Positions 11,061 to 14,272 of a stretch of 64,000 nucleotides of DNA are shown piece by piece. The notes under the pieces are model-generated. The model was given only the letters and a program-made list of their open reading frames with translations, searched no databases and was not told the DNA's origin. A program made the translations under genes and the position numbers. The stretch lies in assembly GCF_044324785.1 (NCBI RefSeq), contig NZ_CP172127.1; one strand, written 5' to 3'. Source of the stretch: Escherichia coli (lineage in GTDB: Bacteria; Pseudomonadota; Gammaproteobacteria; Enterobacterales; Enterobacteriaceae). Within the stretch, counting starts at the first letter, position 1. Each line of letters begins with the position of its first letter.

Positions 11061-11732
11061 GTGGATAAGGTTTTAGATTCAGCCATCCTTTCTTCAGCAA
11101 ATAAAAGAAAGGGTATCCTTGCTATTGGCGCACATCCTGACGATATAGAATTGGGCTGTGGCGCGTCGCTCGCTCGTCTTGCAAAAAAAGGGTTCTATAT
11201 TGCAGCGGTAGTGATGACATCGGGTAATTCCGGCGTGAGTGAAATAATTAATCGACATCAGGAATCACTCGAAGCATTAAACATTTTGGGGTGTCAACAA
11301 ACTATTCATTTTAATTTTGCTGACACCCGTACTCATTTACAACTTAATGATATGATTTCCGCTCTGGAAGATGTCCTTAAAAAACAAATTCCGTCTGATG
11401 TAGAAATCATTCGTGTATACACCATGCATGATGCTGACCGCCATCAGGATCATCTTGCAGTCTATCAAGCCTCAATGGTTGCCTGTCGCGCTATTCCGCA
11501 AATTCTCGGCTATGAAACGCCAAGTACCTGGCTTTCATTTATGCCACAGGTTTTTGAATCCGTGGAAGAGGAATATTTCACCATTAAACTGGCTGCATTA
11601 AAACAGCATAAGAGCCAGGGCCATCGTGATTATATGCGCCCGGATCGCCTGCGTGCAGTTGCACAATTTCGCGGGCAACAGGTCAATAGCGATCTGGGTG
11701 AAGGCTTTGTAATTCATAAAATGATTCTTTGA
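11061..11732 (+). CDS. yaiS: LmbE/PIG-L-family putative N-acetylglucosaminyl deacetylase, 223 aa
   Basis: Motif AIGAHPDDIELGCG near N-terminus; GTG start at 11061 is the only in-frame start before the domain; TATAAT at 11033-11038 and GGAG at 11047-11050 upstream. Confidence 0.75.
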   Translation: MDKVLDSAILSSANKRKGILAIGAHPDDIELGCGASLARLAKKGFYIAAVVMTSGNSGVSEIINRHQESLEALNILGCQQTIHFNFADTRTHLQLNDMISALEDVLKKQIPSDVEIIRVYTMHDADRHQDHLAVYQASMVACRAIPQILGYETPSTWLSFMPQVFESVEEEYFTIKLAALKQHKSQGHRDYMRPDRLRAVAQFRGQQVNSDLGEGFVIHKMIL

Positions 11733-11741
11733 GCAAATTGC

Positions 11742-12938
11742 ATGAAAACCTGGATATTTATCTGTATGTCCATAGCAATGTTGCTATGGTTTTTAAGTAC
11801 GCTAAAACGTAAACCCAGTCAAAAGAAAGGCTGTATTGACGCCATTATACCTGCGTATAACGAAGGCCCGTGTCTGGCACAGTCACTGGATAATCTGCTG
11901 CGTAACCCTTATTTTTGCCGGGTAATTTGCGTAAACGACGGCTCCACGGACAATACCGAATCGGTCATGGAGGAAGTCAAACGCAAATGGGGCGACCGCT
12001 TTGTTGCCGTCACGCAAAAAAATACCGGTAAAGGTGGTGCGCTGATGAATGGCCTCAATTACGCCACCTGCGACCAGGTTTTTTTAAGTGATGCCGACAC
12101 CTATGTTCCGCCCGATCAAGACGGAATGGGCTATATGCTGGCAGAAATTGAGCGCGGTGCCGATGCCGTAGGCGGCATTCCCTCTACTGCGTTGAAAGGC
12201 GCGGGTCTGTTACCACACATCCGCGCGACCGTAAAGTTGCCGATGATTGTTATGAAGCGCACGCTACAGCAGCTCGTGGGCGGCGCACCGTTTATTATCA
12301 GCGGTGCCTGCGGGATGTTCCGTACTGATGTATTGCGTAAGTTCGGTTTCTCGGATCGTACTAAAGTCGAAGACCTTGATCTCACCTGGACATTGGTGGC
12401 AAACGGCTACCGTATTCGGCAGGCGAATCGCTGCATCGTATACCCGCAGGAATGCAACAGCCCGCGTGAGGAGTGGCGTCGCTGGCGGCGTTGGATTGTG
12501 GGCTACGCGGTCTGTATGCGCCTGCATAAAAGACTTTTATTTAGCCGCTTCGGTATCTTCAGTATATTTCCTATGCTGTTGGTTGTGCTTTATGGCGTTG
12601 GGATTTATCTCACTACCTGGTTTAATGAATTCATCACCACCGGGCCGCATGGTGTGGTGTTGGCAATGTTTCCGCTTATCTGGGTCGGCGTAGTTTGTGT
12701 TATTGGTGCTTTTAGCGCCTGGTTTCATCGTTGCTGGTTGTTGGTGCCTTTAGCGCCGCTTTCCGTTGTGTATGTATTATTAGCTTATGCCATCTGGATT
12801 ATTTATGGACTTATTGCCTTTTTTACTGGACGCGAACCTCAGCGCGACAAACCCACCCGCTATTCCGCACTGGTGGAAGCGTCAACCGCTTATTCCCAAC
12901 CTTCTGCTACAGGAACTGAAAAACTATCTGAAGCTTAA
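11742..12938 (+). CDS. yaiP: Family-2 glycosyltransferase with N-terminal TM helix and C-terminal multi-TM region, 398 aa
   Basis: GT2 motifs NDGSTDNT and SDADTYV; WRRWRRW segment resembling the QxxRW motif of processive synthases; hydrophobic C-terminal third. Confidence 0.8.
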   Translation: MKTWIFICMSIAMLLWFLSTLKRKPSQKKGCIDAIIPAYNEGPCLAQSLDNLLRNPYFCRVICVNDGSTDNTESVMEEVKRKWGDRFVAVTQKNTGKGGALMNGLNYATCDQVFLSDADTYVPPDQDGMGYMLAEIERGADAVGGIPSTALKGAGLLPHIRATVKLPMIVMKRTLQQLVGGAPFIISGACGMFRTDVLRKFGFSDRTKVEDLDLTWTLVANGYRIRQANRCIVYPQECNSPREEWRRWRRWIVGYAVCMRLHKRLLFSRFGIFSIFPMLLVVLYGVGIYLTTWFNEFITTGPHGVVLAMFPLIWVGVVCVIGAFSAWFHRCWLLVPLAPLSVVYVLLAYAIWIIYGLIAFFTGREPQRDKPTRYSALVEASTAYSQPSATGTEKLSEA

Positions 12939-13497
12939 TGTTAAAGAGAAAAACATTCAGATTGCAGACCAGGTAATTATTGATGAAACTGCAGGTGAAG
13001 TTGTTATCGGCGCGAATACCCGTATTTGTCATGGTGCCGTTATTCAGGGTCCGGTAGTGATTGGCGCAAACTGCCTGATAGGTAATTATGCGTTTATTCG
13101 TCCTGACACAATAATCAGCAATGGCGTAAAAATTGGTTTTGCCACCGAAATTAAAAATGCGGTTATTGAAGCGGAATCAACGATTGGTCCGCAATGTTTT
13201 ATTGCTGACTCGGTAGTTGCAAACCAGGCATATTTGGGCGCACAAGTACGTACCAGTAATCATCGTCTGGATGAACAGCCTGTGTCTGTTCGAACTCCAG
13301 AGGGAATTATCGCTACCGGATGCGATAAATTAGGTTGTTATATCGGGCAGCATTCACGCCTTGGCGTACAAGTTATTATTTTGCCCGGGCGAATTATTTC
13401 CCCGAACACGCAACTTGGCCCACGCGTGATTGTAGAACGTAATTTACCTCCCGGAACTTATTCACTCCGACAAGAACTTATCCGTACAGGAGATTAA
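12787..13497 (+). CDS. yaiX: Hexapeptide-repeat (left-handed beta-helix) acyltransferase-like protein, up to 236 aa
   Basis: Repeated [LIV]-G-x4 hexapeptides (VIGANTRICHGAVIQGPVVIGANCLIGNYAFI…). Start uncertain: the only candidate starts (ATG 12787, ATG 12805, TTG 12814) all lie inside the yaiP 3' end in another frame. Confidence 0.65.
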   Translation: MPSGLFMDLLPFLLDANLSATNPPAIPHWWKRQPLIPNLLLQELKNYLKLNVKEKNIQIADQVIIDETAGEVVIGANTRICHGAVIQGPVVIGANCLIGNYAFIRPDTIISNGVKIGFATEIKNAVIEAESTIGPQCFIADSVVANQAYLGAQVRTSNHRLDEQPVSVRTPEGIIATGCDKLGCYIGQHSRLGVQVIILPGRIISPNTQLGPRVIVERNLPPGTYSLRQELIRTGD

Positions 13498-13498
13498 A

Positions 13499-14272
13499 AT
13501 GATAAAACGGACGTTATTAGCGGCGGTCATTTTTAGCGCATTGCCCGCTTATGCCGGGTTAACTTCCATTACCGCGGGCTACGATTTCACCGATTATTCT
13601 GGCGATCATGGCAACCGTAATTTAGCGTATGCTGAACTGGTGGCGAAAGTTGAAAACGCAACGCTGCTTTTTAATCTTTCCCAGGGGCGTCGTGATTATG
13701 AAACTGAACATTTCAATGCCACTCGCGGTCAGGGTGCGGTCTGGTATAAATGGAATAACTGGCTGACAACCCGAACGGGTATTGCCTTTGCGGATAATAC
13801 GCCGGTCTTTGCCCGCCAGGATTTTCGTCAGGATATTAACCTGGCACTGTTGCCAAAAACGCTTTTCACGACCGGTTATCGCTACACGAAATATTACGAT
13901 GATGTCGAAGTCGATGCCTGGCAAGGCGGCGTATCACTCTATACTGGCCCGGTGATCACCAGCTATCGCTATACCCATTATGACTCCAGCGATGCAGGTG
14001 GTAGTTACAGCAATATGATTTCCGTGCGTCTGAATGACCCCCGCGGCACTGGTTATACTCAACTATGGCTAAGCCGCGGCACAGGTGCTTACACCTATGA
14101 CTGGACGCCAGAAACACGCTACGGCAGCATGAAGAGCGTCAGTTTGCAACGTATTCAACCGCTGACTGAGCAACTTAATCTCGGGCTGACGGCAGGTAAA
14201 GTGTGGTACGACACCCCAACCGATGATTATAACGGTCTGCAACTTGCAGCCCATCTGACCTGGAAATTCTGA
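13499..14272 (+). CDS. yaiO: Outer-membrane beta-barrel protein YaiO, 257 aa
   Basis: Signal peptide MIKRTLLAAVIFSALPAYA, C-terminal …LTWKF; AGGAG RBS 7 bp upstream; start 1 bp after yaiX stop. Confidence 0.85.
   Translation: MIKRTLLAAVIFSALPAYAGLTSITAGYDFTDYSGDHGNRNLAYAELVAKVENATLLFNLSQGRRDYETEHFNATRGQGAVWYKWNNWLTTRTGIAFADNTPVFARQDFRQDINLALLPKTLFTTGYRYTKYYDDVEVDAWQGGVSLYTGPVITSYRYTHYDSSDAGGSYSNMISVRLNDPRGTGYTQLWLSRGTGAYTYDWTPETRYGSMKSVSLQRIQPLTEQLNLGLTAGKVWYDTPTDDYNGLQLAAHLTWKF

What the first reader, a model, noticed from the sequence alone, without database searches (positions are those of the whole stretch)
12787..12938. yaiX has no independent start downstream of yaiP: at least 125 nt of out-of-frame overlap
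The hexapeptide-repeat frame stays open back into the yaiP 3' end. The only in-frame start candidates (ATG 12787, ATG 12805, TTG 12814) all lie inside yaiP, and there is no ATG, GTG or TTG in the yaiX frame between the yaiP stop (12938) and the first hexapeptide repeats. This could reflect translational coupling, a frameshift event, or an ancestral GT2-acyltransferase fusion.
Basis: seen in the sequence. Interest (0 to 1): 0.4.

Follow-up and report, generated by a model that had tools for sequence, protein, structure and literature searches.

The report
Real 134-base yaiP–yaiX gene overlap
The acetyltransferase gene yaiX most likely starts at an ATG 134 bases inside the preceding glycosyltransferase gene yaiP, because enterobacteria lost the gene's original start signals and adopted an upstream one; this is an ordinary gene overlap, but an unusually long one.

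Summary
The yaiX frame is open from 12784. Its only canonical starts are ATG 12787, ATG 12805 and TTG 12814, all inside yaiP, which stops at 12936-12938. The next canonical start is GTG 13057, inside the hexapeptide repeats.

Comparison of 24 orthologous loci explains this. Outside Enterobacteriaceae, yaiX starts at an A/GTG directly before an invariant Trp-Trp. An AGG/AGA Shine-Dalgarno sits in yaiP's Arg codon, and yaiP stops 10 nt after the Trp-Trp begins, giving a 14-nt coupled overlap. In all 17 enterobacterial loci that start, the Shine-Dalgarno and the stop are gone. All 17 instead have an ATG 63-69 nt upstream of Trp-Trp, which is window 12805.

Synonymous variation in yaiP falls from 0.58 to 0.16 (z = -8.4) exactly from -10 to +25 around this ATG, and only in enterobacteria. 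The curated K-12 record already starts yaiX' here. RefSeq's automatic annotation of intact alleles uses CTG 12916 or 12904, which removes the conserved Trp-Trp segment.

No support was found for a frameshift or an ancestral fusion. The start is inferred from comparison, not shown experimentally. This is a genuine long co-directional overlap of a known kind, of modest interest.

The parts
11742..12938 (+). yaiP, a membrane GT2 glycosyltransferase of 398 aa; stop TAA at 12936-12938
   Evidence: ORF. Pfam PF00535, 7e-28. Weak PgaC/IcaA-like match. Annotated as yaiP in RefSeq.
12805..13497 (+). yaiX, best-supported coding sequence: a 230-aa hexapeptide-repeat (left-handed beta-helix) acetyltransferase starting at ATG 12805
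   Evidence: Pfam Hexapep, 5e-18. The ATG is conserved in 17 of 17 enterobacterial loci. It is the same start as curated K-12 b4579. AF2 mean pLDDT is 92.6. Codon-position diversity of 0.28/0.18/0.62 indicates purifying selection.
12805..12938 (+). Overlap of 134 nt between yaiP and yaiX, with yaiX in the +1 frame
   Evidence: Coordinates. The MG1655 record has the same 134-nt overlap (382739..382872).
12795..12830 (+). Inferred yaiX translation-initiation region inside yaiP codons W352-G363: weak GGA Shine-Dalgarno-like triplet, U-rich spacer, ATG, and the first 8 codons
   Evidence: Synonymous diversity in the yaiP frame is 0.16 here against 0.58 +/- 0.05 in 327 background windows (z = -8.4), and there is no dip in the 7 non-enterobacterial loci. 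G356 is always GGA and Y/H355 always NAT. This start has the least local RNA structure of the candidates and a Shine-Dalgarno duplex of -3.1 kcal/mol. The surrounding 60 nt (12783-12842) are identical in 4839 of 4854 E. coli records, against 866 of 4841 and 3199 of 4840 for two control 60-mers.
12787..12789 (+). Upstream in-frame ATG found only in Escherichia; a possible minor alternative start giving 236 aa
   Evidence: Present in E. coli and E. whittamii, and otherwise only in L023 of the remaining enterobacterial loci. Shine-Dalgarno duplex -1.6 kcal/mol.
12814..12816 (+). In-frame TTG three codons after ATG 12805, formed by YaiP I358-A359 (ATT GCC)
12858..12860 (+). Former Shine-Dalgarno position: YaiP Arg373 codon, CGC here
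   Evidence: AGG or AGA in 7 of 7 non-enterobacterial loci, about 8 nt before their start. CGN in 17 of 17 enterobacterial loci.
12868..12870 (+). Former yaiX start-codon position, now CAC (His)
   Evidence: ATG or GTG in all 7 non-enterobacterial loci and in the two candidate-phyla-radiation loci. Never a start codon in the enterobacterial loci.
12871..12876 (+). Invariant Trp-Trp codons (TGGTGG), the conserved N-terminus of the YaiX family
   Evidence: W23 and W24 are invariant in all 56 aligned sequences. They are present where no yaiP lies upstream. Model pLDDT is about 89-92 for residues 21-40.
12879..12881 (+). Former yaiP stop-codon position, now GCG (Ala380)
   Evidence: In non-enterobacterial loci yaiP stops at Trp-Trp +8..+10.
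12879..12935 (+). New 19-aa YaiP tail, a read-through extension that is poorly conserved and varies in length
   Evidence: The yaiP stop ends at +16, +28, +31, +52, +67, +76 or +82 relative to Trp-Trp in enterobacterial loci. After Trp-Trp, amino-acid identity is 0.29 in the YaiP frame against 0.49 in the YaiX frame, and variation peaks at the yaiX third codon position.
12916..12918 (+). CTG used as the yaiX start by RefSeq's automatic annotation (193-aa product); judged a truncating call
   Evidence: The equivalent codon is GTA, GTT, GAA, TCT or GCA in five enterobacterial loci.
11061..11732 (+). yaiS, a PIG-L family deacetylase in the same gene cluster
13499..14272 (+). yaiO, an outer-membrane beta-barrel protein in the same cluster; good Shine-Dalgarno, starts 1 nt after the yaiX stop

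Best explanation
This is a genuine long same-strand gene overlap created by relocation of the yaiX start.

Ancestrally, yaiX began at an A/GTG immediately before a conserved Trp-Trp. It was served by an AGG/AGA Shine-Dalgarno inside yaiP's ...Thr-Arg-Tyr codons. yaiP terminated 10 nt into yaiX, giving a 14-nt overlap suited to termination-reinitiation coupling.

In the enterobacterial lineage that start, its Shine-Dalgarno and the yaiP stop were all lost by substitution. yaiX is now translated by de novo initiation at an ATG 66 nt upstream (window 12805). That ATG is formed by the conserved YaiP Tyr/His-Gly codons (NAT GGA).

The result is a 22-residue N-terminal extension on YaiX (230 aa in total), a variable read-through tail on YaiP, and a 134-nt overlap.

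Shown here: the sequence anatomy, the contrast between the two clades, and the selection signatures. Inferred: that ribosomes actually initiate at ATG 12805.
For: 1. The conserved YaiX N-terminus lies inside the overlap. Trp-Trp is invariant in 56 of 56 sequences, and distant homologues start at Met-Trp-Trp. The start must therefore lie upstream of 12871.
2. The two clades differ cleanly. All 7 non-enterobacterial loci have AGG/AGA, then A/GTG, then Trp-Trp, with the stop at +10. All 17 enterobacterial loci have CGN, no start at that position, and an ATG at -63, -66 or -69.
3. yaiP synonymous-site diversity is 0.16 across -10..+25 around the ATG, against a background of 0.58 +/- 0.05 (z = -8.4). 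This is lower than all 327 background windows and is not seen in the non-enterobacterial set.
4. The joint chance of keeping the ATG and an open frame in 13 lineages under YaiP-only constraint is about 1e-5.
5. The codon-position pattern of variation switches from the yaiP frame to the yaiX frame at Trp-Trp.
6. The start region is unstructured and AU-rich.
7. The 60 nt around the ATG are identical in 99.7% of E. coli records, against 18% and 66% for two control segments.
8. The curated MG1655 record uses this same ATG.
9. The AF2 model is confident from residue 21 onward, so the Trp-Trp segment is part of the fold.
10. Repairing yaiX' in K-12 gave a YaiP-dependent clumping phenotype (reported in PMC3531124 from a meeting abstract), so the intact gene is expressed and functional.
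Against: There is no direct evidence of initiation, such as ribosome profiling or N-terminal proteomics. The Shine-Dalgarno match is weak (a GGA triplet, -3.1 kcal/mol).

The ATG and much of the extension's sequence follow from conserved YaiP residues, and 3 of 7 non-enterobacterial loci also have an ATG there without needing it.

The enterobacterial loci share ancestry, so the lineage-based probabilities are overstated. The two control 60-mers in E. coli are a small control set.

Several lineages also carry a nearer ATG or TTG (-6, -9, -12 or +6) that could be used instead in those species.
Confidence: 0.75

Rival explanations
1. yaiX starts at a non-canonical CTG near the yaiP stop (12916, or 12904 in other strains), as RefSeq's automatic pipeline annotates it. 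This gives a 193-197-aa protein with a 23-35-nt overlap, possibly through reinitiation by ribosomes terminating at the yaiP stop.
For: RefSeq annotation. The equivalent codon is NTG (CTG, GTG, ATG or TTG) in 12 of 17 enterobacterial loci. CTG 12916 lies 20 nt before the yaiP stop.
Against: This start would delete the invariant Trp-Trp and a confidently modelled segment. The stretch from Trp-Trp to +42 shows yaiX-frame purifying selection (0.29/0.29/0.54). The codon is GTA, GTT, GAA, TCT or GCA in five loci, and in those five loci yaiP stops before this position. From general knowledge, CTG initiates at roughly 1% or less of ATG efficiency. This model does not explain the constraint around ATG 12805.
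Confidence: 0.07
2. In Escherichia the first ATG (12787) is the start, giving 236 aa and a 152-nt overlap, either alone or together with ATG 12805.
For: It is the first ATG of the ORF, two codons after the in-frame TAG. It lies in an AU-rich, weakly structured region. Some gene callers used it (P0121).
Against: Among the loci outside Escherichia it is present only in L023. YaiP codons Y349-A350, which form this ATG, show normal synonymous variation (0.53-0.66). It has the weakest Shine-Dalgarno match of the upstream candidates (-1.6).
Confidence: 0.1
3. yaiX has no initiation of its own. It is made as a YaiP-YaiX fusion by +1 ribosomal frameshifting, or by transcriptional slippage, within the overlap, for example at the T6 run at 12819-12824 or at CCC-A at 12852-12855.
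For: yaiX is in the +1 frame of yaiP and lacks a strong Shine-Dalgarno. A run of six T is present in most enterobacterial loci.
Against: The T6 run is interrupted in E. whittamii (TTTGTT), and TTC variants occur at both Phe codons. No stop or rare codon and no upstream Shine-Dalgarno stimulator accompanies either site. A fusion model would not require the ATG to be conserved or an initiation-like constraint footprint. No fused homologues were found. Ancestrally the two proteins are separate.
Confidence: 0.02
4. Initiation occurs at the near-cognate ATT 12862, 9 nt before Trp-Trp. This codon is ATG in several other enterobacterial lineages.
For: YaiP Tyr374 is always TAT, so this yaiX codon is ATT, ATA or ATG in 16 loci and TTG in L020. 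It is an ATG in Superficieibacter, Enterobacter sp. PGRG2, and the Salmonella / E. bugandensis clade, and annotators used it as the start in the first two.
Against: There is no Shine-Dalgarno (+0.4 kcal/mol). The context is GC-rich and is the most structured of all candidates (MFE -16.8, opening cost 12.1). From general knowledge, ATT is a very weak start codon. The pattern is equally explained by a conserved hydrophobic residue.
Confidence: 0.04

Closest known systems
Co-directional overlapping gene pairs formed by loss and replacement of a start or stop codon (model of Fonseca et al. 2013, PMC3887535; class v, '5' and 3' end extension', of Palleja et al. 2008, PMC2478687)
   Same: The two genes are on the same strand, with the downstream gene in the +1 frame. 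The downstream gene was extended at its 5' end to an upstream ATG, and the upstream gene was extended at its 3' end to the next stop. In each half of the overlap an old, constrained frame is paired with a new, weakly constrained one.
   Different: Palleja et al. found no genuine co-directional overlap longer than 60 bp. The longest they accepted was holD-rimI at 32-56 bp, and they treated this class as annotation error. Here the 83-150-nt overlap is conserved across 17 enterobacterial loci, with selection signatures at the new start.
Translational coupling by termination-reinitiation at short overlaps (reviewed in PMC10666635)
   Same: The non-enterobacterial yaiP-yaiX pairs fit this pattern. 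They have a 14-nt overlap, a Shine-Dalgarno within the upstream gene, and a start close to the upstream stop.
   Different: In this window the start is 134 nt upstream of the yaiP stop and the old Shine-Dalgarno is gone. Initiation must be independent of yaiP termination.
C-terminal acetyltransferase domain of archaeal bifunctional sugar-1-phosphate nucleotidylyltransferase/acetyltransferase (ST0452; PDB 2ggo, 5z09) and of GlmU
   Same: YaiX shares the left-handed beta-helix hexapeptide domain. The family profile matches residues 234-399 of 5z09 at 1e-34, and TIGR03992 at 2e-38.
   Different: YaiX lacks the nucleotidyltransferase domain and scores far below the family cut-offs (132 against 292 bits). 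The Trp-Trp N-terminal segment has no counterpart in those matches. YaiX is encoded with a PgaC-like GT2 enzyme, a PIG-L deacetylase and the YaiO barrel.
prfB-type programmed +1 ribosomal frameshifting
   Same: The downstream frame is +1 and there is no strong Shine-Dalgarno-led start after the upstream stop.
   Different: There is no conserved slippery codon followed by a stop or rare codon, and no stimulatory Shine-Dalgarno. An ATG with an initiation-like constraint footprint is conserved instead.

Membership tests
Genuine same-strand overlapping gene pair | Both reading frames encode proteins under purifying selection | tested here: met
   yaiP: amino-acid identity 0.7-0.9 with synonymous diversity 0.58. 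yaiX: codon-position diversity 0.28/0.18/0.62. Both have Pfam domains.
Genuine same-strand overlapping gene pair | The overlap and the start codon inside it are conserved in orthologues | tested here: met
   ATG at -63, -66 or -69 in 17 of 17 enterobacterial loci, with overlaps of 83-150 nt.
Genuine same-strand overlapping gene pair | Extra constraint on synonymous sites within the overlap | tested here: met
   Diversity 0.16 against 0.58, z = -8.4, at 12795-12830.
Genuine same-strand overlapping gene pair | The start site is verified experimentally | not testable with these tools
   No ribosome-profiling or N-terminal proteomic data were found.
Termination-reinitiation translational coupling | The downstream start lies within a few nucleotides of the upstream stop | tested here: not met
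   The distance is 134 nt in this window. The feature is met, at 14 nt, only in non-enterobacterial homologues.
Programmed +1 frameshift fusion | A conserved slippery site with a stimulator, and no independent start | tested here: not met
   The T6 run is not conserved. A conserved ATG is present. No fused homologues were found.
Ancestral GT2-LbH fusion protein | Homologues exist with the GT2 and LbH domains in one polypeptide | tested here: not met
   None of the best 120 hits or the best 150 cluster representatives has the LbH domain following a GT2 domain of about 380 aa. The longer hits carry N-terminal segments of about 120 aa or about 230-270 aa ahead of the LbH domain. The ~400-aa archaeal bifunctional enzymes that match best have a nucleotidyltransferase there, but the domains of the individual hits were not examined.
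Hexapeptide-repeat (left-handed beta-helix) acyltransferase | Hexapeptide repeats and a left-handed beta-helix fold | tested here: met
   PF00132 at 5e-18. The AF2 model shows short regularly spaced strands with pLDDT 97-99. PDB profile matches to GlmU and ST0452.
Hexapeptide-repeat (left-handed beta-helix) acyltransferase | Acetyl-CoA-dependent transferase activity and a defined substrate | not testable with these tools
   The only functional data are a clumping phenotype of repaired yaiX (PMC3531124) and overexpression effects of the 71-aa K-12 fragment (PMC13058169).

The most novel reading that the evidence does not exclude
The relocated start may be functional rather than a neutral repair. 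Placing the yaiX initiation site inside translated yaiP codons could make YaiX synthesis depend on, or be throttled by, ribosome traffic on yaiP. This would replace 1:1 termination-reinitiation coupling with a different stoichiometry control. Alternatively, the new 22-residue YaiX extension (a short helix, pLDDT about 80) and the new YaiP tail could be co-opted to tether the acetyltransferase to the synthase. If so, this would be a validated, conserved, co-directional overlap of more than 100 nt with dual constraint. Palleja et al. (2008) found no genuine example of that class.
Probability: 0.12. Interest if true: 0.55.

Novelty: new member of a known kind. Interest (0 to 1): 0.3.

Why it matters
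1. It corrects an annotation problem. RefSeq's automatic pipeline gives intact E. coli yaiX alleles a CTG start (193 or 197 aa), and some records a GTG start (174 aa). These calls remove the family's invariant Trp-Trp N-terminus. The curated K-12 record and the comparative data both point to the 230-aa form.

2. It is a well-documented case of a start site migrating. A complete coupling cassette (Shine-Dalgarno, start and stop) was lost and replaced by an ATG that already existed as a by-product of conserved codons in the upstream gene. The result is a conserved co-directional overlap longer than the 56 bp that one survey found to be the longest real one.

3. It gives a clean experimental handle on an uncharacterised exopolysaccharide-like cluster (yaiS-yaiP-yaiX-yaiO, linked to cell clumping). 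A single change that is silent in yaiP (TAT to TAC) should abolish YaiX.

Tried and rejected
- Frameshift or indel origin: rejected. The spacing between the conserved YaiP Y/H-G codons and the Trp-Trp is the same in both clades, and the relative frame is the same in all overlapping loci.
- Fusion origin: rejected. No fused homologues were found, and the gene starts independently at Met-Trp-Trp in candidate-phyla-radiation loci.
- Slippery-site scan: only a T6 run and a CCC-A were found. Neither is conserved together with a stimulator.
- Known RNA element or stable structure in the overlap: none. Rfam gave 0 hits at E <= 1, and the fold z-score is +0.6.
- Internal sigma-70 promoter in 12500-13100: none found.
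- Literature searches for yaiX and yaiP gave no start-site data. They gave only the EcoGene note on the repaired yaiX' and a 2026 overexpression study of the 71-aa K-12 fragment.
- One look-up (P0069) returned no contig.
- Open frame upstream of Trp-Trp as evidence on its own: discounted. GC-rich non-enterobacterial loci also have long open stretches there.
Full report
**What is in the window.** Positions 11061-14272 carry four same-strand genes. They are yaiS (a PIG-L deacetylase, 11061-11732), yaiP (a membrane GT2 glycosyltransferase, 11742-12938), a hexapeptide-repeat acetyltransferase ORF (yaiX, open from 12784 to 13497) and yaiO (an outer-membrane barrel, 13499-14272). The window is an E. 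coli allele with intact yaiX. K-12 has IS2 inserted in this gene.

**Checking the observation.** In the yaiX frame an upstream TAG lies at 12781-12783. The canonical start codons are ATG 12787, ATG 12805 and TTG 12814. The next canonical start is GTG 13057 (residue 91), inside the repeats. yaiP stops at 12936-12938, and yaiX is in the +1 frame relative to it.

**How databases treat the start.** Annotation is inconsistent.
- RefSeq's automatic pipeline starts intact alleles at CTG 12916 (193 aa), or at CTG 12904 in a divergent strain (197 aa).
- Other records use a GTG that exists in some strains (174 aa).
- ENA gene calls use ATG 12805 (230 aa; a cluster of 1737 members).
- The curated MG1655 record places the yaiX' start at exactly this ATG. 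That gives a 134-nt overlap with yaiP (382739..382872).

**The conserved N-terminus lies inside the overlap.** Distant homologues of about 206 aa begin at Met-Trp-Trp. This aligns with E. coli His28-Trp29-Trp30 in the 236-aa numbering, and the Trp-Trp codons are 12871-12876. In a 56-sequence full-length alignment the two Trp residues are invariant. In two candidate-phyla-radiation genomes the gene stands alone. There it has its own AAGGA Shine-Dalgarno and ATG-TGG-TGG, and the GT2 gene lies downstream rather than upstream. Trp-Trp conservation therefore comes from YaiX, not from YaiP. An AF2 model has mean pLDDT 92.6. It is confident from residue 21 onward (block means 89, 92 and 85 for residues 21-50), less so for residues 11-20 (60), and shows a short helix at residues 3-7 (block mean 80). 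A start at CTG 12916 would remove 37 residues, including this segment.

**Ancestral versus enterobacterial junction.** I compared 7 non-enterobacterial loci where yaiP lies upstream (L010-13, L016-18) with 17 enterobacterial loci (the window, L003-9 and L019-27).
- Non-enterobacterial loci: YaiP ends ...DKP(T/E)RYxxVVx*. yaiX starts at an ATG or GTG directly before TGGTGG. The yaiP stop ends 10 nt after the first base of the Trp-Trp codons, so the overlap is 14 nt. The Arg of T-R-Y is always AGG or AGA, which places a Shine-Dalgarno about 8 nt before the start.
- Enterobacterial loci: the codon before Trp-Trp is never a start (CAC, TAC, CCT, CGG, CGT, CCG, GCA, CTA, CGA, CAT or CCA). The Arg codon is always CGN. 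The yaiP stop has moved to +16, +28, +31, +52, +67, +76 or +82.
- All 17 enterobacterial loci have an ATG at -66 (-63 or -69 where there is a one-codon indel). It is formed by the YaiP codons Tyr/His355-Gly356 (NAT GGA).
- Only 3 of the 7 non-enterobacterial loci happen to have an ATG at that position.
- The spacing from the Tyr/His-Gly codons to the Trp-Trp is the same in both clades, so substitutions, not a frameshift, removed the old signals.

**Selection signatures.**
- Upstream of Trp-Trp, variation peaks at the yaiP third codon position, and amino-acid identity is 0.82 for YaiP against 0.57 for the yaiX frame.
- Downstream of Trp-Trp, variation peaks at the yaiX third codon position. Diversity by yaiX codon position is 0.29/0.29/0.54 from Trp-Trp to +42. 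Over the first 13 codons after Trp-Trp begins, identity is 0.49 for YaiX against 0.29 for the YaiP tail.
- Each half of the overlap therefore pairs an old, constrained frame with a new, weakly constrained one.
- Synonymous diversity in the yaiP frame is 0.58 +/- 0.05 across the gene. It falls to 0.16 over W352-G363 (12795-12830), which is -10 to +25 around ATG 12805. That is z = -8.4 and lower than every one of 327 background windows.
- Within that zone Gly356 is always GGA, Tyr/His355 always NAT and Ile358 always ATT. From Arg364 onward synonymous variation returns to near normal.
- The footprint therefore looks like an initiation region rather than a constrained peptide. The non-enterobacterial set shows no dip there. 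Its constraint sits at the AGG/AGA codon and the start next to Trp-Trp.
- Randomising synonymous codons with each gene's own usage gives a joint probability of about 1e-5 that 13 lineages keep both the ATG and an open frame up to Trp-Trp. Lineage independence is assumed, so this overstates the significance.
- Within E. coli, the 60 nt at 12783-12842 are identical in 4839 of 4854 records. Two control 60-mers in yaiP are identical in 866 of 4841 and 3199 of 4840 records, and the Trp-Trp-to-stop segment in 167 of 4654.

**Initiation context.**
- ATG 12805 has only a weak Shine-Dalgarno match (a GGA triplet, -3.1 kcal/mol), but the least local structure of all candidates and a U-rich spacer.
- yaiP itself has a weak Shine-Dalgarno (-1.9).
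- ATT 12862 lies in a GC-rich, structured stretch with no Shine-Dalgarno.
- There is no Rfam match, no significant RNA fold and no sigma-70-like promoter in the region.

**Rival explanations.**
- The CTG start near the yaiP stop is contradicted by yaiX-frame selection between Trp-Trp and +42. It is also contradicted by the five loci in which the equivalent codon is GTA, GTT, GAA, TCT or GCA, because yaiP stops before that position in those loci.
- ATG 12787 is found outside Escherichia only in L023, and the codons that form it vary normally at synonymous sites.
- A +1 frameshift fusion lacks a conserved slippery site. The T6 run is TTTGTT in E. whittamii. A fusion also would not explain the conserved ATG.
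- No GT2-LbH fusions appear among the best 120 hits of one search or the best 150 cluster representatives of another.

**Comparison with what is known.** The origin matches the start/stop displacement model for unidirectional overlaps (PMC3887535). It falls in the '5' and 3' extension' class, which Palleja et al. regarded as misannotation. They found no genuine co-directional overlap above 60 bp, and the longest they accepted was holD-rimI at 32-56 bp. Here the overlap is 83-150 nt and is conserved with selection signatures, so it appears to be real.

Functionally, YaiX is a hexapeptide acetyltransferase. It is closest to the C-terminal domain of archaeal bifunctional sugar-1-phosphate nucleotidylyltransferase/acetyltransferases. 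EcoGene reported that repairing yaiX' in K-12 produces clumping that depends on YaiP. This suggests an exopolysaccharide module comprising a GT2 synthase-like enzyme, a deacetylase, an acetyltransferase and an outer-membrane barrel.

**Verdict.** The best explanation is a plain but unusually long gene overlap, with yaiX starting at ATG 12805. The curated K-12 annotation already implies this, and comparative evidence now supports it. The start is inferred, not experimentally shown. Interest is modest.

Noticed in passing
window 12904-12918, and RefSeq loci L001-L003: RefSeq's automatic annotation gives intact E. coli yaiX a CTG start (193 or 197 aa). Some records use a strain-specific GTG (174 aa). 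The curated MG1655 record and ENA gene calls use ATG 12805 (230 aa). The short forms lack the invariant Trp-Trp.
   Followed up: yes
window 12861-12863 (YaiP Tyr374; yaiX codon ATT at 12862-12864): Where YaiP residue 374 is Tyr (16 of the 17 enterobacterial loci) its codon is always TAT, so the overlapping yaiX codon is ATT, ATA or ATG; in L020 the residue is Leu (CTT) and the yaiX codon is TTG. This could be a conserved hydrophobic residue or a secondary near-cognate start 9 nt before Trp-Trp. It is unresolved.
   Followed up: partly
window 12765-12773 (YaiP V342-Y344): A second, smaller dip in yaiP synonymous variation (0.13-0.32) lies 32-40 nt upstream of ATG 12805. It may be part of an extended initiation region. 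It is unexplained.
   Followed up: no
window 11598-11717 (- strand): A 39-aa ykiC-like small ORF lies antisense within the 3' end of yaiS. RefSeq annotates it as YkiC or as a hypothetical protein in other strains.
   Followed up: partly
window 11061-11732 (yaiS), with a divergence boundary near 11700: yaiS is an intact 223-aa ORF here, whereas K-12 has a TAG in place of a CAG near 11620. Identity to K-12 is about 0.87-0.90 across 11300-11699 and rises to 0.97-1.00 from 11700 on. This suggests a recombination boundary at the yaiS/yaiP junction.
   Followed up: partly
L019:2444-3226 (Enterobacter sp. PGRG2): In this locus yaiX has lost its usual stop and runs on to 260 aa (241 aa as annotated). 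It overlaps yaiO by 86 nt, a second long overlap in the same cluster.
   Followed up: no
yaiP stop position in the window, L003-L008, L019 and L027: In 9 of 17 enterobacterial loci the yaiP stop ends at exactly +67 after Trp-Trp, but the stop codon differs (TAA, TGA or TAG). This could be chance or selection on the stop position.
   Followed up: no
P0039 (348 aa, a single Logan contig): This predicted protein joins TauA-like substrate-binding domains to the C-terminal half of YaiX. It is probably a deletion or rearrangement, or an assembly artefact, between tauA and yaiX.
   Followed up: no
L005 and L007 (Citrobacter braakii); P0051 (E. coli plasmid); L009 (Ignatzschineria metagenome-assembled genome): The yaiS-P-X-O cluster occurs twice in one Citrobacter genome, on E. 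coli plasmids, and in a non-enterobacterial metagenome-assembled genome that has the enterobacterial-type junction. This indicates horizontal spread of the cluster.
   Followed up: no
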